From a virus: a DNA stretch of 64,000 nt. Position numbers and translations under genes: made by a program. Of the stretch, positions 924 to 60,022 are shown piece by piece; positions within the stretch are counted from its first letter, which is position 1; every line of letters starts with the position of its first letter. The stretch is taken from positions 32,001 to 96,000 of IMG/VR virus record IMGVR_UViG_3300033273_000392. One strand, written 5' to 3'. The notes beneath the pieces were generated by a model, which was not told the origin of the DNA, did no database searches, and was given only the letters and a program-made list of their open reading frames with translations.

Positions 924-1920
924 AAAAAATATCGTCCTCGTCCCAGTTCTCGTCTTCTCCAGCCTTAGAATAGTCTGTTGGTCTTACCGCAAAGAAATCT
1001 GTATGTGTATGTCCACCAGTAAGATGGTAGAACCAATCTAGCTGAGAAGCTGATTCATCATCATACTTCATTTTTGGCTCATAGCCAAGCTCTACAAGCT
1101 TCTCATTTGCTCTCTTGATAATAAAGTTCTTTAGGTCTATTGCCTTAAGATTCTCCAGATCTCCCATCTCAAACATCTTCTCAATAAACTTATGTTCCAT
1201 CTGAACCATAAGCTCTGCTGCATGTTCAACTTCTGGTCTCACAAGCTCCTTAAGCTCTGGGTATTCCTCACACATATGACAGAATAGCTGACATCCCATC
1301 TTAGAATGTAGTGACTCGTCTCTAACTGACCACTTCATTTGCTGTCCAATTCCTTTAAGCATGTTTCTCATCTGAAATGAGTACAATACTGCAAATGAAG
1401 AGTATAGTGAAACTCCTTCGGCAAACGCTGAGAAAATAGCTAGAGACCTTGCCACATCCTTACGTGCTCTTGCATCTTTAGATAAATCGTCGTGTGTATA
1501 GTCTGCTTCGGTTGAAGTTAGCATTTCAAACTTCTCTGCAACCGCAGGCTCATGTAAGAATGCTGAGAAATCTTCAAGTCCTAGTGTTTCGTTTAAATAT
1601 GAGTATGCTGTGGCGTGAATAGTCTCTTGAGAGCCAAACATCATAGCCATCTGCTTAATTTCGTGTTTTGGGAACCAGCGAGTAACCATAGTTGTCCAAT
1701 AATCGGAAACTGCACATTCGGTCTGTGCAAAACCCAATAGGATATTACCCACGATGTTCTTTTCATGTGGTAATAACGCCTCGTTCCAATCTTTTACATC
1801 ACCCTGCATTGAGATTTCGGTATGTAACCAAAATGCTTGGGCCTGTTTTAACCATCCTTCTAAGTAATATACGGGGTACTCAAAAGGCTTATATTCAATT
1901 CTTTCTTTAAAAAGTGACAT
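922..1920 (-). CDS. nrdB: Ribonucleotide reductase class Ia beta subunit
   Basis: YKPFEYP, AFWLHTEI, QETIHATAYS, FAEGVSLYSSF, VRDESLH di-iron motifs, DFFAVRPTDY; ATG at 1920 preferred over upstream TTG. Confidence 0.95.
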   Translation of the reverse strand: MSLFKERIEYKPFEYPVYYLEGWLKQAQAFWLHTEISMQGDVKDWNEALLPHEKNIVGNILLGFAQTECAVSDYWTTMVTRWFPKHEIKQMAMMFGSQETIHATAYSYLNETLGLEDFSAFLHEPAVAEKFEMLTSTEADYTHDDLSKDARARKDVARSLAIFSAFAEGVSLYSSFAVLYSFQMRNMLKGIGQQMKWSVRDESLHSKMGCQLFCHMCEEYPELKELVRPEVEHAAELMVQMEHKFIEKMFEMGDLENLKAIDLKNFIIKRANEKLVELGYEPKMKYDDESASQLDWFYHLTGGHTHTDFFAVRPTDYSKAGEDENWDEDDIF

Positions 1921-1945
1921 TTTGCTATTATTTTTTACATAAGTC

Positions 1946-1968
1946 GAAAAACGGCCTATCTCTAGGCC
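1946..1968 (-). terminator. Terminator-like hairpin between polB-N and nrdB
   Basis: Minus strand CGGCCTA-GAGA-TAGGCCG followed by TTTTT. Confidence 0.55.
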
Positions 1969-2048
1969 GACATCCAACTCATAATCTAAAAATACTAGCA
2001 GCGCTGCAAGTGATTTATATATTTGAAATGCTGCTTGTAATTTCCAAA

Positions 2049-3452
2049 TTAAGAGTTAAACTTTTTCTTCAATTCCCTAGCTTTTTCGTAAAAATCATAC
2101 GAAGTTTTCTTGTATTGTTTACGCTGGGCATATAGATCTGTTAGAATCTTTCTAAGGATAGAATCCTCTTTTTGATAAACGACACCGTTTTCGCATACTA
2201 TGACATCTTCATCTTTACGACGCGTATTTATCTGGTCCTGAGTTACCATTTCGACGTATGAGTCAGGTGAGATATTAAACTGACGCATGATAGAAGGGTA
2301 TAGGGATGCAAAGTCAAATGCGCTAACTCCGCTATAATATCCTGAGATGGGTTCCTTGACAAATGCACCGGCGTACTTGCCGTCTTTCTTACCATCTTCT
2401 TTATCATACTCAATGCCAACTCGCTTATTCTGTTCAACAAGCTTACGTGCAATGAGTGCTTCAGTAACCGCCACTGGAGATGCTGCCTTATACAATGGCA
2501 TCTTCGTAATAGTGGCTAGCGTAAGAAGAACCTCCATGCTTCTAAGCTTCTCGTCAATATAGTATACAAGAATAGAGTCAACTACGTTATAGAATACGTA
2601 TTTCTTAAAGTCATTCTCATAAAGATCTTGAAGCGATCCTTGATACTTAATCTTCTTTACATTAAGAACCTGACCAGAAACATAGTCGAGTGTATTAGAT
2701 TCCTTTACCTTAACAGAACGATCATACTTATCGTAAAGCTGCATGTAGTCCAAGATTCCCATATGCAATGGACGGCTATCATTACGGTCTAATTCACCGG
2801 TAATTGCCACTTCGCTAAGGTCGATCTGAAGTCTCTTACATCGGTTTACAATATATTGCCAGTCATAGTTAATAAAGTTCCATCCTGTCATCATAGGAAA
2901 CTTAGGAAGGAACTTATGCAAGAAAGTGTACAGCATATTGTACTCGTCCTTAAACTTGTAATAGCTAAACTCCCAGTCTTGATCGTATCCCTCGAAATGT
3001 GCGTTGGTATCTTCCTCGATCTTTTTGATTTGATCAGAAGAAAGATCGTCTAGACCAAGAACAATTGCCTTACGTTCTGGTGTAATAATAGAGAACGTAA
3101 GAATACGGGACTTAGCTTCCTCTGGTTTAGGAAAGCCATCTACGATCTCGGTCTCGATATCGACAAAATATGTTCTAGGGATATTGAACTCAAAGATCTC
3201 GTTACGGTCCTTTTCAGGAAGGCTGTCCATAAAATAGATCAATGAGAACTTATTAAATGCTCTTGATCGATTCTTCTTTACACAACGTCCATCCCAATTT
3301 AGAATTCCCTCTTGGCGATCTCGGTCTTCGTTATTAGTGACAACCCAGTTCTCAAATTGTGAGACTGGATATCTTTTAAAGCTTACCTTACCCTCCCTGT
3401 TATAGTAACTTACAATTACCTCGGAATCTCTCTGCTCAATATCAAGTAGCAT
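2049..3452 (-). CDS. gp43: Family B DNA polymerase, N-terminal subunit of a split gp43-like enzyme (3'-5' exonuclease + motif A)
   Basis: ExoI VDIETE, ExoII GWNFINYD, ExoIII YNVVD, motif A FDFASLYPSI; ends in fingers helix with no complete motif B or YGDTDS motif C. Confidence 0.88.
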   Translation of the reverse strand: MLLDIEQRDSEVIVSYYNREGKVSFKRYPVSQFENWVVTNNEDRDRQEGILNWDGRCVKKNRSRAFNKFSLIYFMDSLPEKDRNEIFEFNIPRTYFVDIETEIVDGFPKPEEAKSRILTFSIITPERKAIVLGLDDLSSDQIKKIEEDTNAHFEGYDQDWEFSYYKFKDEYNMLYTFLHKFLPKFPMMTGWNFINYDWQYIVNRCKRLQIDLSEVAITGELDRNDSRPLHMGILDYMQLYDKYDRSVKVKESNTLDYVSGQVLNVKKIKYQGSLQDLYENDFKKYVFYNVVDSILVYYIDEKLRSMEVLLTLATITKMPLYKAASPVAVTEALIARKLVEQNKRVGIEYDKEDGKKDGKYAGAFVKEPISGYYSGVSAFDFASLYPSIMRQFNISPDSYVEMVTQDQINTRRKDEDVIVCENGVVYQKEDSILRKILTDLYAQRKQYKKTSYDFYEKARELKKKFNS

Positions 3453-3916
3453 TAGTATCCGCGGTTTTGGCGATCGTGATTCTCTTCGTTTTTAGCCATA
3501 TATAGATTGACTACATCTTTTGCAGTCATTCCAATTGAAATGGCAAAGTTCATATAGAAATGAAGACCATCAATCCACTCGTAGTAAAGCTCGAGGCGAT
3601 CATCATCGGAAAGGTCTTCGATACGCATATCTTTTGCCTTAACGTTATCCTTTTTCCAGTATTTCCAAGCCGCTGATGCAATACCATCATTAACTCCTCC
3701 AAGTGCATCAAACATTTCATTAAGCTCATCACTCATTGCATGTTTGTTAACACACCAAAAGTCTGCGATTTCTTTAAGAGTCCATCCATCAAAGTTAAAT
3801 CCTAGGCGCTCTTGCAATTCTTTTTGCTTGTTGTAAACCATGCCTAGAGTATCATTTGACTCAGTATAGTAGTCCTTAACTTCTAGATCTGCACATTTAT
3901 TGTCTGCGTTAGCCAT
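3452..3916 (-). CDS. All-alpha dNTP pyrophosphohydrolase (T4 gp56 dCTPase/dimeric dUTPase-like)
   Basis: DELNEMFDAL, WKYWKK, EWIDGLHF, C-terminal YMAKNEENHDRQNRGY. Confidence 0.8.
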   Translation of the reverse strand: MANADNKCADLEVKDYYTESNDTLGMVYNKQKELQERLGFNFDGWTLKEIADFWCVNKHAMSDELNEMFDALGGVNDGIASAAWKYWKKDNVKAKDMRIEDLSDDDRLELYYEWIDGLHFYMNFAISIGMTAKDVVNLYMAKNEENHDRQNRGY

Positions 3917-3929
3917 GTGTTTTTGTTTT

Positions 3930-3955
3930 TTCTATTCGTATTTGTAATATTGTTT
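3930..3955 (-). promoter_or_regulatory. Putative middle-type promoter variant AAAC-N17-TAGAA upstream of dNTPase/polB-N
   Basis: Minus strand GAAAC aatattacaaatacgaa TAGAA. Confidence 0.45.
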
Positions 3956-4851
3956 CACTTATCAGTATCTCTAATCTCTCCCCATTCTCTTTGCGAGTCT
4001 ATTGTCTTTTTAGTCTTTTCAAAATCTGGTTTAGGATCGCCGCCTACATTCCAAAACCAAGCACCTGGAGATCCATGCTTTACCATAAATTCCCATGCCT
4101 TGGCGTCATAGTTAAGCGCAGATGGGAAAGGGGGGAAGAATTCTGAACTTACATTTTGGTTAAACGCTTTTGGGTGGCTCCACATAGTAGCGCGGCCTCT
4201 TTCTCCTTTCTGTATATTACGAGCAACCGCAACCGCATTAAACTTAGTATCTGGCCATGCAATCTGCAATGAGCGTTGCAAGACGCCTGTTGAAATAGCC
4301 GACCATGCCTCTTCAGGATATCCATGATTCTCTGCTAAGTCATAAGCAACCTTTACAGCAGCCGCAGTAACCCACTCGTGCTTAAGGCCGAGGGGGATAA
4401 AAAATGCATTGTTATCTTCTGCCCAATCTTTTGCTATCTTATTTAGGTTAGGCATAGCAGCGATTCTACGGAACTTCATTTCAGCACCACGCTCTACACA
4501 GATTGCCTGGTGATCTGAAATCTCTTTCTGGCTTGGGCTAAAGAGAACAAGCCTCTTATTATACTTCTTGGCTAAATATGCAAGAGAGATACCTGCGAAT
4601 CCATACCTAGGCTGAACATATACCAATGTATCTGACTCTGCCTTTTGTACTAGGATATCTCCGAATCTACACTTTGATCCAAAGCCCATCATATCTTCGC
4701 GCACTACTTTAAATCCATCATGCTCAACGATTTCAGGAGCATCGAATGGATCTTTCCAGTCCCCTGCTAGTTCTAGCCACGCGTCTCTATTAGGGTACAT
4801 AAGGTTTAAGTCCTGATTATACTCGCTTTCTGTATGTTTGTTATGAGCCAT
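3955..4851 (-). CDS. PLP-dependent enzyme (fold type II) of the kind found in phage DNA-hypermodification clusters
   Basis: VVREDMMGFGSKCR (PLP lysine), GFAGISLAYLAKKY, AISTGVL, NYDAKAW, FWNVGG; next to aGPT-Pplase-like gene. Confidence 0.75.
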   Translation of the reverse strand: MAHNKHTESEYNQDLNLMYPNRDAWLELAGDWKDPFDAPEIVEHDGFKVVREDMMGFGSKCRFGDILVQKAESDTLVYVQPRYGFAGISLAYLAKKYNKRLVLFSPSQKEISDHQAICVERGAEMKFRRIAAMPNLNKIAKDWAEDNNAFFIPLGLKHEWVTAAAVKVAYDLAENHGYPEEAWSAISTGVLQRSLQIAWPDTKFNAVAVARNIQKGERGRATMWSHPKAFNQNVSSEFFPPFPSALNYDAKAWEFMVKHGSPGAWFWNVGGDPKPDFEKTKKTIDSQREWGEIRDTDK

Positions 4852-6055
4852 ATAGTTCTGATACTTTTTGTTTGTATGATTCTACTGTGAGACCCGCTTC
4901 AGCAATAATCTTGTCATCGCTAGGGTGATGGGTCATACCGTTAAAGGTTTCTACTAGACCGAGATCTAGCATAGCCTTCTGTCTACCAAATGGATGGTCT
5001 TTGATAGTCGATGAGTTCCATAGGCTATCCATATCAATATGCTTATAGTCAGCGCCGGGTCTCATATAGTTTTCAATCCAACGGATAAAGTCACACGCAA
5101 CATCCTCTGCGTTATATGGAAGTGAACCAGTCTCTTCATATATCTTTGTCATCACGGCATCAAGGAATGGTTCTGACTTTTTGCCCTTTCCGCTAACCGG
5201 ATCAGCAAGATATCCAATACATTCCACTGCGTTTGTCCCATAGTAGAACATAGACTCGCGGTTCACATATTCAGGGAACCAATCAGCAATATCAGCTAAG
5301 ACAGCAGCATACTGGAACTTATAAGCTCTAAGGCCATTTTCTTTATTCCAATCAAACATCCATTGTCCGATGTCTCTGAGATTCTTTTTATCTCCCTCTT
5401 CAAGGTAGTTAGCCAAGTCACGAGCTAATCTAGGTGCAAATTCACAAAGGAAATAATCACCGCCTCTCTTATAACGATACTTAGGGCCTTCAAACCCTGC
5501 CATACCAACAAATAAATCTCCCTCTTCAACCGCCGGCGGCTTAGGGAACGCAGGGAACTGATATCCAACAGAAGTATAGAAAGACTTTGTAGCGCCTTTC
5601 ACCTGTTCACACATCTGTTCAATAGTATCGGATTGCCACAAGTCAAATAGGAGTGTGTTATGATATCCGCTAGGCTTAGTAGCATAGTTGATTGCCGATC
5701 CACAAACCCTGTGCAAGATAAACACATATAGCCATTCAGGAAGGCCAAATACATCCTGCTTTCCAGTCCAGTTTGTAGCTACATCTTTTCTTTGTGGCGT
5801 GATAAGACCCTCTTGCATGCGAGACCAATACGGATGGTCTTCTGTCCATCCGTAAAAACAGTCGTTTACAATCTGGCTAAATCCAGCAAACTTACGTTCA
5901 ACCACATCGTAGAGTTCGATATGTTCCATAAGAGGATCGTTCATATCAGATTCCTGATGCGGTATATGTCCTAGATTAGACTTCTTCTGCTGATCTAGAG
6001 CTAAGTTGTAATAACGGATAAACTCGTCATAGTATTTTGTAGTAGTAATATCCAT
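4841..6055 (-). CDS. Divergent aGPT-Pplase family (5-hmdU DNA kinase helical domain / amino acid:DNA transferase superfamily) DNA-modifying protein
   Basis: Ordered blocks DPLM..DVVER, LHRVCGS, FYTSVGY, FQYAAVLADI, YYGTNA, EDVACDFIRW resemble the family pattern DPIL..NVxRE / FRxFN / FxAYxxxxDL / GPGA / LCEFDKY (recalled). Confidence 0.6.
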   Translation of the reverse strand: MDITTTKYYDEFIRYYNLALDQQKKSNLGHIPHQESDMNDPLMEHIELYDVVERKFAGFSQIVNDCFYGWTEDHPYWSRMQEGLITPQRKDVATNWTGKQDVFGLPEWLYVFILHRVCGSAINYATKPSGYHNTLLFDLWQSDTIEQMCEQVKGATKSFYTSVGYQFPAFPKPPAVEEGDLFVGMAGFEGPKYRYKRGGDYFLCEFAPRLARDLANYLEEGDKKNLRDIGQWMFDWNKENGLRAYKFQYAAVLADIADWFPEYVNRESMFYYGTNAVECIGYLADPVSGKGKKSEPFLDAVMTKIYEETGSLPYNAEDVACDFIRWIENYMRPGADYKHIDMDSLWNSSTIKDHPFGRQKAMLDLGLVETFNGMTHHPSDDKIIAEAGLTVESYKQKVSELYGS

Positions 6056-7131
6056 TAAAAAAGAGCTGCTTGAATTTTTGTCTCGCCAAATTTTTTGTTT
6101 TCTTCGTCTTTAATTAAATCCCATCGATAGAACTCACGCGCAATATGTACCGACTTAGGCTTTTCCATAACATCAAATGTAAGTTCGCCTAGACTGTTTT
6201 TGTAACATGCTGGATGTTGCCATGTTTTCCATTCATTCCTAGCGCACATCGATACAACAAGTTCATTAAATTCTTTTACGAGATTAGTTCTTTCTTCCCA
6301 AGTTCCAAAGTAAGGCGTATCTTTATAGTAACCTGTCTTTGGTAGTTTTCTAGATACGTCTTCAATAGGCAAAGCTTGTACTACCTCAATGTCATTAATT
6401 CCTAAGTCTTGTAGCTGTAGCTCATATTCTAGCATCATGCTTTTAAGTGATGAATGTGGATCCTTCTGTCTCATTAGGTGGTGTCTTATATCTATATTAC
6501 CTAAATACACTCGAAGTGAATTAATTCCACTTGGAACATAAGTAGAAATACCACGCTTTAAGGTACCGAAGAGTGTCAATCCATCATTTCTATCACACAT
6601 AAAACCAGGAGTATACTGACTGAATGAATGAGAATCGCCAAAGCAAAGCTTATCTGTCTTTTCAATAAGGTCTACTCGCTTGATTTCTTTACAGATTTTC
6701 TTTGCTTCATCAATAGATGACTCAAGCGTCTTAAACAGATCCGAACCCGTCTTAAGCCTCTTTTCAATAAGAGTACCAACACATGGCATATCATGATGCA
6801 ATGAGTACATGCGAACCTTCTTAAAAAGCCGGTTGACCTGTCGGTACAAGTCATCATTGGCACCTCCAAAGATATTAAAGTTGCCCTTGAATTCCATACC
6901 ATGTTCTAGAAGGATAACGTCATAGTCTTCCCAATTTGTAGTATTATCATTGATAACACTCACACTAGGATAACCAGCATGCCACAATTGATTGCAAAGC
7001 ATATAAGCCCATCCCGCTTTATGCGAAGTGGGCTTAGAACTAAGCTTACCAACAATTGGGCATATACCAATCTTGATTCTAGTGTCAGGCTCGAGATCCG
7101 TAAAGTATACTTTATTGTTCGTATCCGGCAT
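6055..7131 (-). CDS. Fusion of T4 beta-glucosyltransferase-like N-terminal domain and SGNH-hydrolase-like C-terminal domain
   Basis: N-term IKIGI..EDYDVILL..NFNIFGG..YSLHHDMP parallels T4 BGT; C-term FGDSHS, GNIDIR, KSVHI. Confidence 0.5.
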   Translation of the reverse strand: MPDTNNKVYFTDLEPDTRIKIGICPIVGKLSSKPTSHKAGWAYMLCNQLWHAGYPSVSVINDNTTNWEDYDVILLEHGMEFKGNFNIFGGANDDLYRQVNRLFKKVRMYSLHHDMPCVGTLIEKRLKTGSDLFKTLESSIDEAKKICKEIKRVDLIEKTDKLCFGDSHSFSQYTPGFMCDRNDGLTLFGTLKRGISTYVPSGINSLRVYLGNIDIRHHLMRQKDPHSSLKSMMLEYELQLQDLGINDIEVVQALPIEDVSRKLPKTGYYKDTPYFGTWEERTNLVKEFNELVVSMCARNEWKTWQHPACYKNSLGELTFDVMEKPKSVHIAREFYRWDLIKDEENKKFGETKIQAALF

Positions 7132-7441
7132 CTGCGTCTGATAGATCTATTGGAGCTTCGTTATCCTTGTAACCGTACTTTTTGATATAGTTATCAAGGC
7201 CACCGATATATGCGACTGCGTCAAGCAAGTTATCTTGTTTGTAGTTATATGAATGTCGGCTAAGCTTAAGGGCAACAAGAGCTGCATACATGTCAGATCC
7301 TGTCCACTCTTTACCTGTCATACCTGAACAAATCATAGCTGCACGGCGCATACCTTCTTCAAAGGGGCCATACATTCTTTCTTTTTCTTCAGATCGATGA
7401 TTAATAATCTGATCAGCGTCTTTAAGAATGTTATTACTCAT
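7112..7441 (-). CDS. DUF6378-like small alpha-helical nucleotide-modification-associated protein
   Basis: ILKDADQII..RMYGPF..ALKLSR..DNLLDAVAY pattern. Confidence 0.65.
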   Translation of the reverse strand: MSNNILKDADQIINHRSEEKERMYGPFEEGMRRAAMICSGMTGKEWTGSDMYAALVALKLSRHSYNYKQDNLLDAVAYIGGLDNYIKKYGYKDNEAPIDLSDADAGYEQ

Positions 7442-7457
7442 GAGATACTTTTCTTTT

Positions 7458-7483
7458 TTATACTAAAAAGCCGCGAAATGTTT
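7458..7483 (-). promoter_or_regulatory. Putative middle-type promoter AAAC-N17-TATAA heading the modification/polymerase operon
   Basis: Minus strand GAAAC atttcgcggctttttag TATAA; overlaps terminator hairpin. Confidence 0.6.
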
Positions 7484-7493
7484 CACGGCTTTT
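7465..7493 (-). terminator. Rho-independent terminator (possibly bidirectional)
   Basis: AAAAGCCGTGAAA-CA-TTTCGCGGCTTTTT immediately after stop at 7497. Confidence 0.75.
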
Positions 7494-25509: not shown

Positions 25510-28500
25510 TTACTTCTTTATTTTTATCAACGGTCTTATAATATAGGAATATCCTAGACTCTTATTATATATCAATCTAAAGTTGATTGCGCTATTTGCA
25601 TGTTTTGTAATTGAGAATTCATCATCCTTTATAAACCCTCCGTTATCTATTAAGTCAATGCTATCCACAGACTCTATAGAAGATGCTTGATTCTTTCTTT
25701 TAGAAACAAACAGTTCAATATCATCTATGCTAAATACGGAAATTAAATTATTGTTTACGTATCTTTCAACATCATCTTCAATTGTCGTCTTATCGTTTTC
25801 AGAGAACTCAGGTAAAACATACTTAGATATTTCATTAAGCACTCCTGTTTTAGAGAACTTATCTACAATAGAATCAGAAACATAAAAGTCTATCATAATT
25901 CTATCTTCAGTCTCAAGAAATACTACTGGACTTTCATTATTTCTATTCCTCAATATAGACTCAAGTTCACCCTGATCGCCTGCAGTTTGATACTCAAAGT
26001 CAAAAATAGAGTATGAGTCACTAAGCTTCATAATAGTGCTAGAAAGATAAGATCTTGTCTCTTTAGTAGATAAAGTACCTGGAACGCTAGTAGAATCACC
26101 TCCAGCTGCAGATCTAACATAGTAGTCATTTTCCCATGAAGATCTTAAAACATTAACGTCCTTCTTATCAATTGCGATTTCTCCAATCAAAGGATATACT
26201 GGTAAGAACTCACTAGACTCACTCAGTTTAGTTACACCAGTTGGGTTATCTTCATTTACCTTATGGTAAAAATGATTTTTAATTATAGCCCAGTTTAAAT
26301 CATGCTCTCCTGAGATAAAGCCTACATTAAATGCAATTCCAGCCCTATTATACTTTTTGTAATATGCGATCGCTCTATCAATTTCAGCTTGATCTGATAT
26401 AGAATGCTTATACAGTCTATTTTTTAGGTCATTTTCAAACAAAAGAGCAAGTTGATTTAGATAGTTTCTTTCAATTTTATGATGATTGTAAACATCAGTA
26501 AAAGTCAAAACTGGGTTCATAGAAACAGTATAGTTACCAGAATGCCTAATAAGGAAAGGATAGTACGGATTTCTTTCAGAAATATTATATCCAATAGTTC
26601 CATTAAATAGGCTGTACGTACTTGGCTTATTAGTATCTTGTACTGAAATTATAGAAGATTCTTTTACAATTTCTTTACCATCTTCAAACGCGATAACAAA
26701 CCCACTTTCAATCTGGTTTCCATTCTTGTCAATTGTAGTATAGTTTATAAGAGGGCTTTTATTATTTATAAGATCTGCGACTCTACCAGCGCTAAGAGCT
26801 TTTAAGAAATTAGAGTGAGCATTCTTACCACCTTGCTTATATGTGTACTTAGCAGAAAGCTGTGTTGAATATGGGATATACGTTGGATCTAATGCAACTC
26901 CATCTGCTGTTTTTGGTGCACCATCTATTACTAGAGTATCAAAAGTCTTTATGTTTTTTACAGTAACATAGTACGGTATAGGATTACCATCTTCGTCCTC
27001 AAACCCATAGTCTATTTCAATATCTCCATATAAATTATCATTTAAAACTGCTAGCTGTAAATCTAATGAAGGAACGCTTCCGTTAACATGCGTTACCGCT
27101 GGAATTTCGTAAGGACCTGGAGCATTAAAGTTAATTCCACTAAAAATAAGAGCCCCGGATATCTCAATATCATCATATCCAAATGAATCTCCATCTATGG
27201 CTAACTTATTTGTCAAAGTGTAAAGTAACCTTCTATTAATCTTACCGTCAACATATCTTTCATTCAAGTCAACTTCAATGAAAAGGATTACAAATTTAAA
27301 TACGTCATTCTTTATGACGTCATACCGAATAGTATTAGATTCTGCATTAGTATTAAACTTGACAACAGTAGAAAACCTGTACCCATTAGCAGAAGAGTCT
27401 TGTATAAACTCGGTAGGTATTTCGTTTATAGATTCTTTTCTATGTTTTAACACGACTTTAATTCCATTAAAGAACGTACTTGCAAACGCAGAGTCACTAC
27501 CTTTCTTGAAAATAGAGTATTTCTTATCTAGTTGTGTCTTGGCAAACAACTTAAAGTCATCAAAGTCCTCTTCTAACTCACCAACGGAATTTAAGTTGTA
27601 TCCTTCTCCAACTAGATATATGTTAAAATAGTCATGTTCAGTTGACATGAACAAATTCTTTTCTAGCTTAGTATCACCAATAAAGTTTACATAGCTGAAA
27701 GATTTATTTACATTAAGATATGTAAAGTAATCTGGTAAGTCGGAAATGTAGAACCATTCATGTGAAAATCCCTTTGGATCTCTTTCGCGTACTTCGAGAT
27801 CAGGTGCAAAATTAGTTCTACCAAACGCTTCGTTTACATTTAAGTAATATGGATTATTTCTAACCGTCTTCGCTCCTTCTAAAACAAACTTATTAATAGA
27901 AGGTACGACCCTAGAATTAGTAGTTAATTCATTTACAAAGTTTTCATTTAGCCTATCAAACTCTGATTTTATCATAGTAGCCTCTTGTGAATCGGGCGTT
28001 TCTTGATTTAATACAGGTAGCAGATTAGCAAATAATGCACTAGAGTCTTTGAAGTAATCTTCGTTTAACAACTCTGTTCCCAGTAAAGTTTCATCTCCAG
28101 CTGGGGCATATGCTGTGTTTTCAATAGTTTCTAAACTTAGTTCTTTTAAATCTGAATTTGATTCATCGTAAAAATCAAAGTCCATATCATAAAAGTCGTA
28201 GCATGAGAAAAGTCCCATTTCACATCTAAAGTTAGAGTACACCTTGTATACTCCTTCAGATATTTCTATGTTTCTATCGAAGATAACAATTTTATAGTCT
28301 CCGGTAAGGTCATTAATATCATCCACAATGTCTAAAACAGCAGCATATGTTTTACCTCCTTTAGCCTGTATTAAGTCACCGACGCCAATAGCACCTAAAG
28401 AGTCAATGCTAATTTTAGCAGATCTCATATTCCTATATCCACCCCTTAGCGTAAATACACCGTTTTCATATGCCTGTAAAGCTAAATCAGAAAGTTCAAG

Positions 28501-31500
28501 TTCGTTACTTGAATCTATACTAGAGTCTTCAATCGTAACAAAGCTAGCTGTATTATCTGACCTTAACAACACAGCTGAGTTCATAAGCTTATAACCAGGG
28601 AACTTTGAAATAACATATACTTCATTTCCATTCGTTATAGCTCTAAACTTATCAATGTTATTAATGCACGCAGCAATAGCTCCGGCGATTTGACCATTAG
28701 TTCCATTAGAAGAGAAATACGTACCGCTTATTCTACCAGCAGAGAGACTAGATGTTGCAACTAAAGTATCTTCTAAAATATTTACAGAACTGTAGATGTT
28801 TTCTACTTTAACAACACTAGAAGGATTGTTATTAGTAATAGTTACTAGTATATCAGATAAGCCTGCTTTCTTTTCTTTGATAACACATGTAGTAATAAAC
28901 TCTCCTTGCTCGTTTTTAATAATATCGATTTCAGCTTCTAAGAAATCACTAAATTGTTGATTTTGATTTAGACTATTAACTAGCTCTTCTAAACCAGATT
29001 CTACATCTGATGAAGAATCCCAAGATTGAGAAAATGGAGATTCAAGACCTACAAAATTTATAGTGTTTGCATTCTCGTTAGCAATATGGTTTATATAGCT
29101 TACCCTATGTGCAACTTTTTTAACTTCAGTAATTATAACCTGATCTGAGTCTCCTGGAGTTTCTTCAACTGTAAGTTTTAAGAAATCAAAGCCGTCTCCT
29201 ACATTAGTAGACAGCGCAACGCTTCTTCCTGTATCAGTAATACCCCTTAGGTCTTCAATCTGTATATGCGGATTGGCAATTTTAACATCAAATGCATTAG
29301 TATCATAGTATGCTCCGTTAGGTATGTTAATATAACCTTGTTTAGTAGTTACATATCCTAGTGCAGGTGCATTCTTAAACAACTTGTAGTCTGGTATTGC
29401 AAAGGTTTCATCGCTAGAATCCATGTATGACTCTAATTTAGAAAACTTAATTATACCTCTATTTACATTATCGACTTCACCCATACCAGAAGGTATAGCA
29501 TCTGCATAAATACCAATATAACGATTAACTGTAAACTCTTCAGCGCTAGAATCGTCAAACATAAATTCAAGATTCATTAAGTTTGCCGAAACAAGTCCGT
29601 TTCTTCTAAACCCGTCAGTAATAAAATCATTTGATTCTATTAGAGTCTTATCAGAATATACAAAGTCCTTATAGATGAACTCCCCCTTTCTAGCAAAGCC
29701 ACCTCTAGCTATATCGATACCATTGTAAAAAGTCTGTTCGTTTTTTTCAAAAGAAACAGATATACAATCGCTTGGGAAATTTGTATCGTTTACATGGCTT
29801 CTTATGTAGGAACCCAAGTTTGAGTTATCAGACAGGTCGAACGTCTTAATAAGGGTTGAATTCTTAAGAAGCAGATCTACTCTAGATAGTTTGTCTTCAT
29901 TAGAATCGGTAAGTTGAACCGAAGGTACGGGTCCATCTATTCTGTAAACCAGGAATAATTTAGGAACGTTAGTATCTAACCAAATAGGAGCAAACAACCT
30001 GAAGCTTTCATTATATCTCTTTGAAGAATTAATCTTAGCGCCATATTGATATTCATCCTCGAATTGCTTTGCATAATCACTTAACGCTGAGAAATCAGAT
30101 GAATCTCTTTTTACCGAGTAAGTCATCTCATACGGCGTCTTATTATCATTATAGAATCTAGAAATATCGTAAGAATAAGATCCGCTGGGGCTTACAGAAA
30201 AAGCTTTATATTTTGAATCTGCTAAATCTTTAGTAGCACTAATTGTTTCTAAGTAAATGTTATCACTAGAATCTACGACTAACTTTATGTTTGAAGATAG
30301 TTTAGGATTTGTTCTTAATAGGGGTTTAGATAAGTTTTCTAGTTTATAGTTCTTTTCTAAATCAAGTCTAGGCCTTAAAACATCTTCCTCTACGCCTACT
30401 TCTTCAAGAAAGTTAAATTCACGTAGTTCCTTAGGATCTGAATTAATTAACTCATAACATGGAAGAGTTCCCCATAACACAGTAGAAACACCAACTAGTC
30501 CTAAATCAGATGCTTCTGCAAATAGAATATCGTTATAATCGTATCCAACCTGAACAAGTAATTCTCTTGCAGAAGAAGGATTTGTCGCAACTAGTGTATG
30601 AATATATGTTTTTGCGCTATTAATAATCAGAGGTTCTGGTGACCACGGTTCAGAATCTACTGTATAAAAAGTAGATCCAATTCCTATTTCGGAAGTAAAT
30701 TCATATAGTTCTCCTCTGTCAGCTACTGGAGTTGAGCTAGTATGGTTTCCATAGACTATGTAAATTCTTTGACTGCCTGATATATCAGCACATGACATAA
30801 ACGCGTAAAACACTGCATTACCAGTACCATCTGCTAGAACAGGAGCATTGGACGTTGGAAGTTCGAAAACTTCATGAACAATAGGACCGGATACATTTTG
30901 ATCTGTAATATCTCCATCTGCATTTACGCCAATGTATACTGTTTCTTCTTCGCCGTAAGTTGCTATATAGTGAGTATCGTTATCTACGCCAATTGCTATA
31001 TTTTCAGTAATAGAAAATAATGCACTAGGAAGTACCGGGTGTGGATAATATATAGTAAGTCCATATTTTGCAATTTCGTCTAGTGTCCAGTTAGGTAAAC
31101 CCAAATGCTTCTGATATCTAAAAACCTGGACATCTTTATATCTAATTCGGTATTCATTAGCATCATCATATAAATCTTGTGGAAGTGTAGATACTTCAGG
31201 AGCAACTACCTTATATTGAACTTCAACAGTTCCATACCAACTTGCAGGAATAATGTAAACGTTTATCTCATAAGGATAGTTAAATTCTAAGCCTGCCTTT
31301 CTATCTCCTCTTGCTCTCCATGCTGCACCATCTTCTAAATAATCGGTATTAAACTCCCAGTATATACCTTCTCTATCAGTAAGAAATCCAGAAGCTAAAT
31401 CACTATTAATAGAGTACTCGGCGCCTACAGATGTAGTGTATATTGGTATTTGTCTTTGCGCAATTTCATAGATGGTAAGATCTTCGTCTACTTCATTTGC

Positions 31501-45394: not shown

Positions 45395-45538
45395 TTACGT
45401 ATAGAGTGTAGGTCTAGGTATACCTTCTAAGACCTTATTTCTATTTTTTTTCCATTTGTTTATAAAGTCAGGGTCGTTTACGTATTGTTTCCACACATAA
45501 AAGTCCTTTAAATCCTCTAATAGTTGTTGAATATCCAT
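45395..45538 (-). CDS. Small hypothetical protein (47 aa, MDIQQLLEDLKDFYVWK...), absent from ORF track
   Basis: Manual translation; TAATG coupling to amidoligase stop, fills the gap. Confidence 0.55.
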   Translation of the reverse strand: MDIQQLLEDLKDFYVWKQYVNDPDFINKWKKNRNKVLEGIPRPTLYT

Positions 45539-57825: not shown

Positions 57826-59558
57826 TATTTTATAATTTTAACACGTTCTGTAAAGCTGTCAGGGAAAAAGCCCTTTTTATTTATCAGGCTATTAAAGCAA
57901 GCATCTAGGATATATGTAACCGCCCAGTCATCCTCATTTCGGACGCTACGGCCAACTCCTTGCATAATAGATACGCCGGTCTTCCAGTCATACCAATCTA
58001 CATACTTGCCCATCTTAGCCTTAACAAGCGGATCACCTAATGATGGATATGGAACCTTAAAGAATATCTGGAATCGACTATTATCGTCTTTTAAATCTAA
58101 TCCTTCAATAAGAGATGGACCCATCAGTATTGACCCTTCTTTATACTTAAAGATATCTAATTGTTCTGCCTTTTCTTTAGATCCGCTATAGTCCATAATC
58201 CTCCATCCATGTTGGCTATGCTGCTTAATGTATTCTGTAAAGGCATAACTCCCTGTATGAATAATGCCACGTTGCCCTTTATGCTTATCAAGAATCTTAT
58301 CAAGGACCTCTACCACCTTAGGTAAGTTACGCTCACGTTCCCTGTAAGAAAGCTTGTGTCGGTTCACAAAGATAACAGGAGACTTATCATAGTTGAATTG
58401 ATTACCTAGGCGAATCACCTTAGCAGACTGGATTCCCATGTGCTTAGCAAAACTTCTAATATCACCTAAGGTAGCCGACATAAAAATCTTGAAGCCAGCC
58501 TTCTCAAGAAGAAATTGCTTGACCATATTAGATTCTTCGACACACATAAACTTAGTCTCTTTATCATCGCGATCAATAACCATAGAGTCAACGCCATGTT
58601 CTTTGATGATATCATGGTAGTCATCAAACTTACACCATATATCTTTCATCTTATCCATGATAACAAAGAATGTGGCCCAATCCTTAGGAACCGCAGAATC
58701 ACCAGGGAAAGCCTTCTTACAACGAACACGCCCGGCTTGATGAACCTTACGGTAAACCGTGGCTAACCATCTCATATCAGCAATGGCCTTCATAAGTTCA
58801 TTAGGATCCTCTTCATGCATAAGGTCATAGATAATAGTCTTGATTCGACTTTCACTAACCGTGCTTTGACCCAATCCATTTCTCATAGAGAACTTATTAG
58901 CTGATCTAAACAGATTTATCATGTCCTCATCAACCCTAGGAGCAAAATGATTTTGCACGATACTATCGATCTTATGTGCCTCATCAAAGAATACAAAGTC
59001 GCGCTTCTTAAATGGAACCTCTTTATTGTCTTGCAGCAACTTATCTTCTACATAGTTACGTTGAATAAGCCAATAGTTATAGTTCAATAGGCTTACTGGC
59101 TGTTCTATAGCCCTCTTTCTGCTCTGAAGATATCCACAATGCTTGAAACATTTTAGCTGCTTCTCAGCCGCCTCGTATCCCATTCCCTTAAACTTGCATA
59201 CACCTAGGCTAAAGGTGTTTCCATTAACATGGCATTCATAGTTGTCGACTCCACGAACAGAAGGCCATTTGAGCTTCAACCTTGAAAAATCATTTTCATA
59301 TTGGTCCTGCAACATAAGATCAGAAGTCACAAGGTATCCCTGGTTTCCCATCTCTTTAAAGATGTATGAACACCACATAGCGATAATAGACTTACCTGTT
59401 CCAGTAGGTGCGTCTAAAATAACTGTAGATTCGGGATCCTCTAGATAAGCTTCACAGATCTGTACGATCGTCTCTCGTTGATTTAGCCTAAATGTAAAGT
59501 TAGGGCCGAATACACCTGCCTTAAGGGCAGAATCTATAATCTTATTTATATTGTTCAT
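57825..59558 (-). CDS. dinG: DinG/XPD-family SF2 helicase with probable Fe-S cluster
   Basis: DAPTGTGKS, four Cys after RGVDNYEC, FDEAH, MSATL, EGLDL, KVPYP, QGVGRSVR. Confidence 0.88.
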   Translation of the reverse strand: MNNINKIIDSALKAGVFGPNFTFRLNQRETIVQICEAYLEDPESTVILDAPTGTGKSIIAMWCSYIFKEMGNQGYLVTSDLMLQDQYENDFSRLKLKWPSVRGVDNYECHVNGNTFSLGVCKFKGMGYEAAEKQLKCFKHCGYLQSRKRAIEQPVSLLNYNYWLIQRNYVEDKLLQDNKEVPFKKRDFVFFDEAHKIDSIVQNHFAPRVDEDMINLFRSANKFSMRNGLGQSTVSESRIKTIIYDLMHEEDPNELMKAIADMRWLATVYRKVHQAGRVRCKKAFPGDSAVPKDWATFFVIMDKMKDIWCKFDDYHDIIKEHGVDSMVIDRDDKETKFMCVEESNMVKQFLLEKAGFKIFMSATLGDIRSFAKHMGIQSAKVIRLGNQFNYDKSPVIFVNRHKLSYRERERNLPKVVEVLDKILDKHKGQRGIIHTGSYAFTEYIKQHSQHGWRIMDYSGSKEKAEQLDIFKYKEGSILMGPSLIEGLDLKDDNSRFQIFFKVPYPSLGDPLVKAKMGKYVDWYDWKTGVSIMQGVGRSVRNEDDWAVTYILDACFNSLINKKGFFPDSFTERVKIIK

Positions 59559-59977
59559 TGGTCATTCCAACAGATAACCTCTTCAACGCTGATTCCAGCT
59601 TCTTTTAATAGCTCAACTCCGGACATATCTCTATATGATTCAGAGTAGTAAACTTCTTCGATGCCCGCTTGAATAATAAGCTTAGCGCAATCAAAACATG
59701 GCGCAGTTGTAGTATAAAGCGTAGCTCCGTTAGATGACATGGTTGACTTAGCAATCTTAGTAATCGCATTAGATTCAGCATGCAAAACCGAAGGAAGAGT
59801 ACAGTCATTCTCTTCACAGCAATTATCAAATCCCTTTGGAGTTCCATTATATCCAAATGAAACGATTTGCTCATCCTTAATGATGATACATCCAACCTTT
59901 CTACGTTCAGCATAACTCAACTTTGCAGTCTGATATGCTATCTGCATGTAGATCTTATCAATTGGTATTCTTGGCAT
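59555..59977 (-). CDS. cd: dCMP deaminase
   Basis: KVGC, GYNG, HAESNAI, PCFDC. Confidence 0.92.
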   Translation of the reverse strand: MPRIPIDKIYMQIAYQTAKLSYAERRKVGCIIIKDEQIVSFGYNGTPKGFDNCCEENDCTLPSVLHAESNAITKIAKSTMSSNGATLYTTTAPCFDCAKLIIQAGIEEVYYSESYRDMSGVELLKEAGISVEEVICWNDQ

Positions 59978-59980
59978 AAT

Positions 59981-60011
59981 AAAAAAGGTCTACATTTTAT
60001 ATGCAGACCTT
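59981..60011 (-). terminator. Rho-independent terminator overlapping a middle-type promoter
   Basis: Minus strand AGGTCTGCAT-ATAAA-ATGTAGACCT-TTTTT. Confidence 0.7.
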
Positions 60012-60022
60012 CCTTAAAGTTT
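59997..60022 (-). promoter_or_regulatory. Putative middle-type promoter AAAC-N17-TATAA upstream of dCMP deaminase/DinG
   Basis: Minus strand TAAAC tttaaggaaggtctgca TATAA. Confidence 0.6.

What the first reader, a model, noticed from the sequence alone, without database searches (positions are those of the whole stretch)
2049..7483. Candidate new DNA base-hypermodification operon co-transcribed with a dNTPase and the polymerase N-subunit
Seen: six tightly packed minus-strand genes behind one AAAC-N17-TATAA site, namely DUF6378-like, BGT-N/SGNH fusion, divergent aGPT-Pplase-family protein, fold-II PLP enzyme, gp56-like dNTP pyrophosphatase and PolB-N. A dCMP deaminase under the same promoter class lies at 59555. 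Established: in phages ViI, M6 and PhiW-14, 5-hmdU in DNA is phosphorylated by 5-hmdU DNA kinase and substituted by an amino acid:DNA transferase, and a PLP enzyme can decarboxylate the adduct. Inference: this cluster has only one, atypical aGPT-Pplase-family gene and adds a glucosyltransferase-like/SGNH fusion I do not know from those pathways. It may therefore make a different hypermodified pyrimidine, with the dNTPase removing the competing canonical nucleotide.
Basis: partly seen in the sequence, partly recalled or inferred. Interest (0 to 1): 0.88.

Follow-up and report, generated by a model that had tools for sequence, protein, structure and literature searches.

The report
Phage hydroxymethylcytosine hypermodification gene cassette
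An uncultured marine giant phage related to T4 carries a four-gene cassette that most likely attaches an amino-acid-derived group to the hydroxymethylcytosine in its DNA. It does this with relatives of the enzymes that decorate thymine in other phages, but an esterase-fold protein stands where the usual DNA kinase would be.

Summary
All six minus-strand genes exist at the stated coordinates, and five of the six family calls were confirmed. The exception is the BGT-like N-domain of the 358-aa protein, which stays unproven.

Main results:
- The 404-aa protein has no Pfam hit. Its confident model is closest to the solved 5-PmdU glycinyltransferase (AADT) of phage PaMx11, and it keeps that enzyme's E-x-x-x-C and D-P motifs.
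- The PLP enzyme belongs to the same PHROG as M6 gp52, the proven decarboxylase of DNA-linked amino acids, and keeps its Schiff-base lysine.
- The 154-aa protein is a T4 gp56 homologue.
- Outside the window, the contig encodes a T4 gp42-like dCMP hydroxymethylase (Cys and Asp kept) and a canonical ThyA. The base being modified is therefore probably 5-hmC, not 5-hmU.
- DUF6378, the SGNH protein, the AADT-like protein and the PLP enzyme form a cassette conserved in over 100 metagenomic loci. It often lies beside the gp42-like gene, and the SGNH and AADT-like parts are sometimes fused.
- A variant cassette swaps the AADT-like and PLP genes for HMUDK_hel, inositol-1-phosphate synthase and a methyltransferase.
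- Aeromonas phages 44RR, 31 and 25 have genes 42 and 56 but no glucosyltransferase. 44RR carries an SGNH + HMUDK_hel fusion; 25 has the SGNH protein alone.

No P-loop kinase was found, so I infer that the SGNH protein is the activating step. I found no publication describing this. It is a new variant of a known kind. The chemistry is untested.

The parts
7458..7483 (-). Promoter-like site AAAC-N17-TATAA, 17 nt upstream of the DUF6378 start codon
   Evidence: The same motif class precedes the RNR large subunit, dCMP deaminase and gp42-like genes. Contig-wide, 10 of 15 matches are non-coding (p 2e-10).
7465..7490 (-). Hairpin (AGCCG / CGGCT, 12-nt loop) followed by T5. Likely terminator of the upstream unit. 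It overlaps the -35-like box.
   Evidence: Read from the sequence. The consensus scan did not list it because its loop exceeds 8 nt.
7112..7441 (-). DUF6378 protein, 109 aa. Constant upstream partner of the SGNH protein. Function unknown.
   Evidence: Pfam PF19905, E 2.6e-9. Atlas clusters are 100% DUF6378. It lies immediately upstream of the SGNH gene in 114 of 135 loci.
6055..7131 (-). 358-aa two-domain protein: Rossmann-like N-domain (about 1-150) plus SGNH/GDSL-fold domain (157-345). Invariant motifs GDSHS (165-169), GNID (211-214) and S327-x-H329. Proposed activating enzyme or acyltransferase acting on the 5-hydroxymethyl group.
   Evidence: AF2 pLDDT 89.8. Foldseek and VIA matches are SGNH esterases and O-acetyltransferases, Z up to 13.3. 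Invariant residues. Found fused to the AADT-like domain in 7 representative proteins.
4841..6055 (-). 404-aa helical protein of the aGPT-Pplase / amino acid:DNA transferase superfamily (HhH-GPD-like fold). Proposed base-flipping transferase acting on C5-methylene of the modified pyrimidine.
   Evidence: AF2 pLDDT 94.6. VIA-wide top hit is 8z2m, PaMx11 gp46, Z 9.7 over 209 aa. BFVD top hits are 'Amino acid:DNA transferase domain-containing' and HMUDK_hel proteins. E317-D318-x-x-C321 and D40-P-L match PUGT E243-T244-x-x-C247 and D24-P-I.
3955..4851 (-). 298-aa fold-type II PLP enzyme of the M6 gp52 / ViI gp226 family. Proposed decarboxylase of a DNA-linked amino acid. Lys60 is the predicted Schiff-base lysine.
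   Evidence: phrog_7093 E 6.2e-37. M6 gp52 is in the same PHROG, E 2e-159. K60 aligns with gp52 K36 and is at least 95% conserved in 77 sequences. PLP298 follows AADT404 in 88 of 89 loci.
3452..3916 (-). 154-aa homologue of the T4 gp56 dCTPase/dUTPase (all-alpha NTP pyrophosphatase)
   Evidence: BLASTP against T4 gp56: 32% identity over the full length, E 7e-26. Pfam dUTPase_2 and phrog_173.
2049..3452 (-). N-terminal part (exonuclease domain plus start of the polymerase domain) of a split family-B DNA polymerase, 467 aa
   Evidence: Pfam DNA_pol_B_exo1 and DNA_pol_B; phrog_2062 E 7e-82. Nearest relatives are huge phages.
1946..2005 (-). Two hairpin plus T-run terminator-like sites after PolB-N. 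They close the six-gene unit.
   Evidence: The RNR small-subunit gene probably starts at the ATG at 1919, not the TTG at 1977.
59555..59977 (-). dCMP deaminase (T4 cd-like), behind an AAAC-N17-TATAA site at 59997-60022
   Evidence: NCBIfam ComEB E 1.9e-28. Motif.

Best explanation
The cassette is a post-replicative DNA hypermodification system that most likely works on 5-hydroxymethylcytosine.

Step 1 (shown by homology). The phage has the T4 set of enzymes for replacing dC with 5-hmdC in new DNA. These are a gp42-like dCMP hydroxymethylase at contig 128116-128979, outside the window; the gp56-like dCTPase inside the operon; a dCMP deaminase; and a canonical ThyA.

Step 2 (inferred). The Rossmann + SGNH protein, with its constant partner DUF6378, converts the 5-hydroxymethyl group into a better leaving group. 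The most likely route is O-acylation through Ser167/His329. It would thus take the place of the P-loop 5-hmdU DNA kinase of the thymidine pathways.

Step 3 (supported by fold and motifs; activity inferred). The 404-aa AADT-like protein flips the base out and substitutes the activated C5-methylene with a free amino acid. The attachment would have to leave the alpha-amine free, as O-serine does in phage ViI.

Step 4 (supported by family; activity inferred). The gp52-type PLP enzyme decarboxylates the adduct. The product would be an aminoalkyl-substituted cytosine such as 5-(2-aminoethoxy)methylcytosine.

The gp56-like and PolB-N genes are co-transcribed neighbours in this lineage, not cassette members.
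For: Substrate:
- The 287-aa TS homologue matches T4 dCMP hydroxymethylase best (E 2.7e-20, against 6e-8 for ThyA). The Cys148 and Asp179 equivalents are kept.
- The 353-aa TS is a canonical ThyA (E 2e-72) and is not like the PaMx11 dUMP hydroxymethylase.
- The 154-aa protein is a gp56 homologue.
- The gp42-like gene lies within 5 kb of the SGNH gene in 19 fetched loci, in several different arrangements. These include directly before and directly after the cassette.
- The gp42-like gene has the same promoter motif as the cassette.

Transferase: fold and motif matches to PUGT. Two relatives give weak hits to Pfam ADDT and HMUDK_hel.

Decarboxylase: same PHROG as M6 gp52, with the lysine conserved (PMC8989533).

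Linkage:
- SGNH and AADT-like proteins occur fused.
- DUF6378 precedes SGNH in 114 of 135 loci.
- AADT is next to or fused with SGNH in 112 of 134 loci.
- PLP follows AADT in 88 of 89 loci.
- One lineage has the order AADT - X - PLP - SGNH, which is shuffled but still linked.

Modularity: 12 loci keep DUF6378 + SGNH but replace AADT + PLP with a HMUDK_hel protein (Pfam 47.8 bits, above the cut-off), inositol-1-phosphate synthase and an FkbM methyltransferase.

Phyletic link: Aeromonas phages 44RR, 31 and 25 have genes 42 and 56 but no glucosyltransferase (PMC2993671). 44RR carries an SGNH + HMUDK_hel fusion, and 25 carries the SGNH protein.

No 5-HMUDK homologue was found in the contig.
Against: - No chemistry was measured.
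- All characterised AADTs act on 5-PmdU, not on a cytosine derivative.
- The window's 404-aa protein gives no Pfam ADDT hit even at E 10. The family profile finds no PDB sequence. hhalign against the single gp46 sequence finds nothing. Membership therefore rests on fold, two short motifs and a UniProt label on a 59%-identical protein.
- VIA Z 9.7 is in the range where helical proteins can match by general arrangement.
- The contig is only about 43% complete, so a P-loop kinase could lie in the unseen part.
- The SGNH role as activator is pure inference. No acyl donor is identified, and the acid of the catalytic triad is unclear.
- Tenacibaculum phage PTm5 has an SGNH358 homologue but no detectable gp42-like gene or helical partner.
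- The fetched loci are related to one another, so the linkage counts are not independent events.
Confidence: 0.55

Rival explanations
1. The pathway is the same, but the SGNH protein is not the activating enzyme. A P-loop base kinase encoded in the unsequenced 57% of the genome phosphorylates the hydroxymethyl group. The SGNH + DUF6378 pair would then do a tailoring step. Examples are removing or adding an acyl group on the appended moiety, or acylating the free amine as the PaMx11 acetyltransferase does.
For: All known AADTs use a phosphorylated base (PMC8989533). The contig is 43% complete. SGNH enzymes are mostly esterases. In PUGT the leaving-phosphate pocket includes residues aligned with the nearly invariant H115/R116 of the 404 family. 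That pocket would also suit a phosphate.
Against: No 5-HMUDK or HMUDK_hel match was found in 149 kb. In none of the loci examined in detail is a P-loop kinase part of the cassette. SGNH is fused directly to the helical base-flipping domain, with the same architecture as kinase + helical domain in 5-HMUDK. It is also the constant element when the downstream genes change.
Confidence: 0.25
2. The cassette modifies 5-hydroxymethyluracil (or thymine oxidised in situ), as in ViI and M6. The gp42-like enzyme would be unrelated to it.
For: Every characterised aGPT-Pplase-family enzyme and gp52-type decarboxylase works on 5-hmdU derivatives. PTm5 has the SGNH protein without a gp42-like gene.
Against: No dUMP hydroxymethylase or TET/JBP was seen. 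The only uracil-type TS is a canonical ThyA. The cassette is repeatedly adjacent to the gp42-like gene, which carries the cytosine-specifying Asp. A gp56 dCTPase sits in the operon.
Confidence: 0.12
3. The genes do not modify DNA. The 404-aa protein would be a HhH-GPD-like glycosylase or a QNG1-like nucleoside salvage enzyme, and the SGNH and PLP proteins would serve metabolite salvage.
For: VIA hits with Z 8.6-6.5 to the queuine salvage enzyme DUF2419, to AGOG and to other DNA glycosylases.
Against: The top structural hit and the BFVD hits are AADT and HMUDK_hel. The PUGT active-site motifs are kept. The PLP partner is in the gp52 family. Context is with DNA-precursor and replication genes throughout.
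Confidence: 0.06

Closest known systems
Thymidine hypermodification pathway of Salmonella phage ViI: 5-HMUDK gp67/gp243, serine:DNA transferase gp247, PLP decarboxylase gp226. Product is 5-NeOmdU.
   Same: It has an AADT-superfamily transferase plus a fold-II PLP decarboxylase of the same family. No radical-SAM isomerase is present, so an adduct with a free alpha-amine is expected. A hydroxymethylpyrimidine made at the nucleotide level by a TS homologue is the starting point (PMC8989533).
   Different: Here the hydroxymethylase is of the dCMP type, with a gp56 dCTPase. No P-loop kinase was found. A Rossmann + SGNH protein and DUF6378 are the constant partners. The transferase is too divergent to hit the Pfam ADDT model.
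PaMx11 gp46 (PUGT, PDB 8Z2M/8Z2N), 5-PmdU glycinyltransferase
   Same: It is the best structural match to the 404-aa protein (Z 9.7, 209 aligned residues). The E-x-x-x-C (metal ligand and base clamp) and D-P-[IL] (amino-acid binding Asp) motifs lie at collinear positions.
   Different: Only 7% identity. The 404-aa protein is about 110 residues longer. D318 stands where PUGT has T244, and His/Arg stand where PUGT has Tyr in the leaving-group pocket. The partner genes differ (FAD lyase and acetyltransferase in PaMx11).
T4 hmC system: gp42, gp56, and the alpha- and beta-glucosyltransferases
   Same: gp42-like, gp56-like, dCMP deaminase and ThyA homologues are all present. The modification is expected on the 5-hydroxymethyl group of cytosine after replication.
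   Different: No glucosyltransferase homologue was seen in the cassette. The decorating enzymes come from the thymidine-hypermodification toolkit plus an SGNH protein. Similarity of the SGNH protein's N-domain to BGT is unproven.
5-hmdU DNA kinase (P-loop kinase fused to the helical HMUDK_hel domain; M6 gp54, SP10 gp186)
   Same: The architecture is a catalytic domain plus an aGPT-Pplase-superfamily helical domain. It recurs here as SGNH + AADT-like and SGNH + HMUDK_hel, either fused or adjacent.
   Different: The catalytic domain has an SGNH/GDSL fold with a Ser-His motif, not a P-loop kinase. The implied chemistry is acyl transfer or hydrolysis, not phosphorylation.

Membership tests
Amino acid:DNA transferase / aGPT-Pplase superfamily (Pfam PF18724 ADDT, PF18723 HMUDK_hel) | Match to the Pfam family HMM above the gathering score | tested here: not met
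   No Pfam hit for the 404-aa protein even at E 10. Of 68 relatives, one hits ADDT at 1e-3 and one hits HMUDK_hel at 1e-2, both below the cut-off. A 59%-identical BFVD protein carries the UniProt name 'Amino acid:DNA transferase domain-containing'.
Amino acid:DNA transferase / aGPT-Pplase superfamily | All-helical HhH-GPD-like fold as in PUGT (PDB 8Z2M) | tested here: met
   AF2 pLDDT 94.6. 8z2m_A is the top hit of 48,161 chains: Z 9.7, rmsd 4.0, 209 aligned residues. It is followed only by HhH-GPD-type enzymes. BFVD hits are ADDT and HMUDK_hel proteins. Caveat: Z below 13 can arise by chance for helical proteins.
Amino acid:DNA transferase / aGPT-Pplase superfamily | PUGT active-site residues: Glu243/Thr244 metal ligands, Cys247 base clamp, Asp24 amino-acid ligand | tested here: met
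   E317, C321 and D40 are at least 90% conserved in the family. They lie at positions collinear with PUGT E243, C247 and D24. The offset of 74 residues agrees with the VIA ranges. This is a motif comparison only; there was no residue-level superposition. Equivalents of Trp146 and Lys150 were not identified.
Amino acid:DNA transferase / aGPT-Pplase superfamily | Works with a P-loop 5-hydroxymethylpyrimidine DNA kinase | tested here: inconclusive
   No match to M6 gp54 or to HMUDK_hel in the 149-kb contig. The contig is about 43% complete.
M6 gp52 / ViI gp226 PLP-dependent DNA-adduct decarboxylases (phrog_7093; fold type II) | Family HMM match over the full length and a conserved Schiff-base lysine | tested here: met
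   Window protein against phrog_7093: E 6.2e-37, profile positions 15-278 of 279. M6 gp52 against the same PHROG: E 2.2e-159. K60 aligns with gp52 K36. The C-terminal PFP..YD.KAW..FWN motif is shared. Pfam PALP scores only 20.6 bits, below the cut-off of 35.
SGNH/GDSL hydrolase superfamily | Three-layer alpha/beta fold with block I GDS(x) Ser, block III Asn and block V His | tested here: met
   VIA Z 13.3-9.4 to about 50 SGNH esterases and O-acetyltransferases over residues 157-345. Foldseek probability 1.0. Invariant GDSHS 165-169, GNID 211-214 and S327-x-H329. No Pfam Lipase_GDSL hit. The acidic member of the triad was not identified.
T4 beta-glucosyltransferase N-terminal (acceptor) domain | Detectable sequence or fold similarity of residues 1-150 to BGT | tested here: inconclusive
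   hhalign of A2 against T4 BGT: one 46-column stretch (query 66-115, BGT 55-101), probability 3.8%, E 0.011. Structure-search lists were filled by the SGNH domain, so the N-domain was not tested alone. The residue aligned with BGT Asp100 is not conserved in the fused forms.
T4 gp56 dCTPase/dUTPase | Full-length homology to T4 gp56 | tested here: met
   32% identity, E 7e-26, residues 6-154 against 5-171. It is the only match in the contig.
T4 gp42 dCMP hydroxymethylase (gene outside the window, contig 128116-128979) | Closer to gp42 than to ThyA; catalytic Cys148 and cytosine-specifying Asp179 | tested here: met
   PDB 1B5E family E 2.7e-20, against best ThyA 6e-8. 'DFVCT' aligns with 'DFMCT', and the Asp in 'LTFDAPF' aligns with that in 'FRNDYAW'.
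Pfam DUF6378 | HMM match above the gathering score | tested here: met
   37.7 bits against a cut-off of 27.1.

The most novel reading that the evidence does not exclude
A previously undescribed class of cytosine hypermodification, in which an amino-acid-derived aminoalkyl group is attached to 5-hmC. The hydroxymethyl group would be activated by a new DNA-base O-acyltransferase-type enzyme (Rossmann + SGNH with DUF6378) rather than by a kinase. This same core module, paired with different helical transferases, would make other adducts. An inositol- or polyol-derived adduct is one candidate. It would also explain the unknown hmC decoration of Aeromonas phages 44RR, 31 and 25.
Probability: 0.3. 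Interest if true: 0.9.

Novelty: new variant of a known kind. Interest (0 to 1): 0.78.

Why it matters
Known amino-acid-derived DNA hypermodifications all sit on thymine and start with a base kinase. Known hmC decorations are sugars.

If this cassette works as proposed, it extends the AADT + PLP chemistry to cytosine. It also adds a new kind of activating enzyme for DNA bases.

It offers an answer to a question left open in 2010: what do T4 relatives with genes 42 and 56 but no glucosyltransferase (44RR, 31, 25) do with their hmC? These phages are cultured, so the idea can be tested directly.

The cassette family is very abundant in marine viromes, with over 900 homologues of the 404-aa protein and over 588 IMG/VR loci. 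A large share of ocean giant-phage DNA may therefore carry the modification. That would affect restriction, sequencing and enzyme-tool discovery.

Tried and rejected
- Nucleotide (megablast) search of the operon, and tblastn of the 404-aa protein, against 50,697 phage records: no match.
- Pfam at E 10, NCBIfam, PHROGs and PDB sequence searches for the 404-aa protein: nothing usable. The family profile against PDB sequences also found nothing.
- hhalign of the family alignment against the single sequences of PaMx11 gp46, 44RR ORF233c and the L152 392-aa protein: no significant alignment. The L152 protein turned out to be an inositol-1-phosphate synthase.
- Foldseek of the 404-aa model against PDB: only E about 0.5-1 hits. 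VIA-wide was needed.
- Single-protein scans of IMG/VR with distant members P0184 and P0127 found nothing.
Contexts came from the search for related loci instead.
- ESM Atlas gave no lead for the SGNH protein's N-domain, and only DUF6378 clusters for the 109-aa protein.
- PDB sequence search for DUF6378 gave nothing.
- Rejected: the 353-aa TS as a dUMP hydroxymethylase. It is a canonical ThyA.
- Rejected: gp56-like and PolB-N as cassette members. They are absent next to the cassette in several lineages.
- Rejected: the promoter motif as chance. The window-level test was not significant, but the contig-level test is.

Full report
**Where the window lies.** The window is bases 32001-96000 of a 149,352-bp IMG/VR viral contig that CheckV rates about 43% complete. 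Nearly all genes are on the minus strand (145 of 153 ORFs). The PolB N-part is closest to uncultured huge phages (47% to LR756500) and to Lak phages.

**The observation.** The six ORFs are at the stated coordinates.
- The 109-aa protein is DUF6378, above the Pfam cut-off.
- The 467-aa protein is the exonuclease domain plus the start of the polymerase domain of a family-B polymerase.
- The 154-aa protein hits dUTPase_2 and phrog_173.
- The 298-aa protein hits PALP weakly but phrog_7093 strongly.
- The 358- and 404-aa proteins have no Pfam family.

The genes overlap or are at most 38 nt apart. A hairpin plus T5 run precedes the unit, overlapping the AAAC box. Two hairpin plus T-run sites follow PolB-N. 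A single transcription unit is therefore plausible.

The AAAC-N17-TATAA motif is not enriched at window level: 4 matches against 1.8 expected, and 11 of 100 shuffles reach 4. Over the contig there are 15 matches on the gene strand and 1 on the other. Ten of the 15 lie in the 5% of the contig that is non-coding, mostly 16-42 nt before a start codon (p 2e-10). The motif precedes this unit, the RNR large subunit gene, the dCMP deaminase gene and the gp42-like gene. A second motif, GATATATA, precedes many structural genes.

**The 404-aa protein.** There are 143 representatives at the 50% clustering level.

An AlphaFold model built on 68 sequences is confident: pLDDT 94.6, pTM 0.92. Foldseek against the PDB gave only weak hits. 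An exhaustive VIA-align search put the 5-PmdU glycinyltransferase gp46 (PUGT) of phage PaMx11 first, with Z 9.7, rmsd 4.0 and 209 aligned residues. It was followed by QNG1, AGOG and other HhH-GPD enzymes. The PUGT authors themselves report that its nearest folds are glycosidases and DNA lyases at Z about 6 (PMC11472151).

Against predicted viral structures, the top hit is 59% identical and named 'Amino acid:DNA transferase domain-containing protein'. Further hits are HMUDK_hel and Pplase1 proteins of PhiW-14, SP10 and phiRSL1.

The PUGT active site uses Glu243 and Thr244 (metal), Cys247 (base clamp) and Asp24 (amino-acid ligand). The 404 family has nearly invariant E317, C321, D322 and D40. 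Their local sequence contexts, E-D-V-A-C against E-T-I-L-C and D-P-L against D-P-I, are collinear. I conclude that the protein belongs to the aGPT-Pplase/AADT superfamily as a divergent branch. It does not meet the Pfam model.

**The 358-aa protein.** The model has pLDDT 89.8. Residues 157-345 are an SGNH/GDSL domain. Foldseek gives probability 1.0 and VIA gives Z up to 13.3. The hits include the SGNH-fold O-acetyltransferases OatA and PatB. GDSHS, GNID and S-x-H are invariant, including in the fused forms.

Residues 1-150 form a Rossmann-like beta-alpha-beta domain with invariant S36-H37 and the N-x-x-G-G motif (N86, G89, G90). Its similarity to the T4 BGT acceptor domain is a weak hint only (hhalign probability 3.8%).

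**Rosetta-stone fusions.** Seven representative proteins of 639-790 aa have a 358-like N-half and a 404-like C-half. One of them lies on a 287-kb contig.

**The PLP enzyme.** M6 gp52 has been shown experimentally to decarboxylate a DNA-linked amino acid, and was modelled on a fold-II template (PMC8989533). It is a full-length member of phrog_7093 (E 2e-159). The window's protein matches the same PHROG at E 6e-37. Lys60 aligns with gp52 Lys36, and the C-terminal motif is shared. Both are at least 95% conserved in 77 sequences.

A homologous PLP domain is fused to an N6/N4 DNA methyltransferase domain in gp1 of Erythrobacter phage R6L.

**Which base.** The contig has two TS-family genes.
- The 287-aa one matches T4 dCMP hydroxymethylase best (E 2.7e-20) and CMP hydroxymethylase next. 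It keeps the catalytic Cys and the Asp that specifies cytosine.
- The 353-aa one is a canonical ThyA.

The 154-aa operon protein is 32% identical to T4 gp56 over its whole length, and a dCMP deaminase is present. This is the T4 enzyme set for hmC DNA. No ADDT, HMUDK_hel or M6 gp54-like kinase match exists in the contig.

**Context in other genomes.** I fetched 160 loci from IMG/VR and JGI metagenomes. Their ORFs were compared with the contig's proteins.
- DUF6378 lies just upstream of the SGNH gene in 114 of 135 loci.
- The AADT-like gene follows the SGNH gene, or is fused to it, in 112 of 134.
- The PLP gene lies within 2.2 kb of the AADT-like gene in 88 of 89.

The cassette occurs in at least four settings:
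- before gp56-like and PolB-N, as here;
- two genes after the gp42-like gene (L102, L104);
- directly before the gp42-like gene (L137, L154, L158);
- in the shuffled order AADT - X - PLP - SGNH, 4.3-4.6 kb from a gp42-like gene (L036, L051, L064, L068; also L057).

The gp42-like gene is within 5 kb of the SGNH gene in 19 loci. These loci are related, so the counts overstate independent support.

About 46 loci have an extra 325-379-aa gene between AADT404 and the PLP gene. It is a distant paralogue of the 404 family. The window's phage lacks it.

**Variant cassette.** Twelve loci keep DUF6378 and SGNH but carry different downstream genes. These are a myo-inositol-1-phosphate synthase, a 136-aa protein, an FkbM-type methyltransferase and a protein that meets the Pfam HMUDK_hel model (47.8 bits). 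The gp56-like and PolB-N genes then follow.

**Cultured relatives.** An HMM built from the HMUDK_hel-like proteins of the variant cassette matches residues 376-779 of Aeromonas phage 44RR2.8t ORF233c at E 5e-80. The N-half of ORF233c is the SGNH protein. That gene lies next to a sodium:solute symporter.

A 2010 review records that 44RR, 31 and 25 have genes 42 and 56 but no glucosyltransferase, and that the fate of their hmC is unknown (PMC2993671). I confirmed gene 42 in 44RR and 25.

A counter-example is Tenacibaculum phage PTm5. It has the SGNH protein (E 1.5e-52) but no detectable gp42-like gene or helical partner.

**Mechanism.**
- Shown by homology: the phage has the enzymes to make hmC DNA, and the cassette contains an AADT-superfamily protein and a gp52-family PLP enzyme.
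- Inferred: the AADT-like protein substitutes an activated 5-methylene of cytosine with an amino acid attached so that its alpha-amine stays free. No radical-SAM isomerase is present, and gp52-type enzymes need a free amine. The PLP enzyme then decarboxylates the adduct.
- Inferred more weakly: the SGNH protein supplies the activation. The reasons are as follows. It is the constant element of the cassette. It is fused to the helical base-flipping domain exactly as the P-loop kinase is in 5-HMUDK. Its fold performs acyl transfer. An ester at the C5-methylene would be a workable leaving group for the exocyclic-methylene mechanism described for AADTs.
- The role of DUF6378 is unknown.

**Novelty.** Full-text searches for cytosine hypermodification, hmC DNA kinase, DUF6378, aGPT-Pplase and Aeromonas phage modification found no description of this system. 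The library lacks most subscription journals, so this is not proof of absence.

I class the finding as a new variant of a known kind. It has the thymidine-hypermodification toolkit, apparently moved onto hmC, with a new partner enzyme.

Noticed in passing
L152:9374-14407 (also L163, L168, L097, L151, L150, L162, L164): Variant cassette: DUF6378, sometimes a trimeric dUTPase, the SGNH protein, myo-inositol-1-phosphate synthase, a 136-aa protein, an FkbM methyltransferase and a HMUDK_hel protein. It may attach a polyol-derived group to DNA.
   Followed up: partly
L004:3396-7376 (Aeromonas phage 44RR2.8t ORF234c-ORF233c): The SGNH + HMUDK_hel fusion gene lies directly after a sodium:solute symporter gene (Pfam SSF, E 6e-53). 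A phage-encoded importer might supply the group that is attached to DNA.
   Followed up: partly
L106:12381-13520, L107:12361-13467, L036:3861-4838 and about 43 more loci: A second, distant paralogue of the 404-aa family (325-379 aa, no Pfam) sits between AADT404 and the PLP gene in many relatives. The window's phage lacks it.
   Followed up: partly
L026:9206-9877 (also L027, L028, L147): In some relatives a LOG/'Lysine_decarbox' SLOG-family gene (Pfam E 3.7e-32) occupies the slot between AADT404 and the PLP gene.
   Followed up: no
contig G000:131521-132717 (outside the window; L173:5522-6718): A GT2 glycosyltransferase lies between ThyA and an RNaseH-like gene. Its homologue sits directly after the PLP gene in L067, L070, L071 and L073, so it may be a further tailoring enzyme.
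   Followed up: no
L003:4885-7314 (Erythrobacter phage vB_EliS_R6L gp1): A large protein fuses an N6/N4 DNA methyltransferase domain to a PLP domain 34% identical to the window's PLP enzyme. A PAPS-reductase-like gene lies about 1.4 kb upstream (gp7, five small genes away). This may be another DNA modification system.
   Followed up: partly
contig G000:127144-131011 (outside the window): A ClpB/ClpC-like AAA+ ATPase (668 aa) and a ClpP protease (225 aa) flank the gp42-like gene. In L102 and L104 this group is contiguous with the cassette.
   Followed up: no
window 1919-1977: The RNR small-subunit ORF as listed starts at a TTG at 1977 and would run through a terminator hairpin. The ATG at 1919 is the more likely start.
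   Followed up: partly
whole contig, for example window 25510-32892 and 45538-46848 upstream regions: A second upstream motif, GATATATA(A/C/G), precedes many structural and large genes. It is probably this phage's late promoter.
   Followed up: no
L174:5611-6600 (Tenacibaculum phage PTm5 ORF-050): A cultured marine jumbo phage has a full-length SGNH358 homologue between RNR genes. No gp42-like gene and no aGPT-Pplase-family partner were detected.
   Followed up: partly
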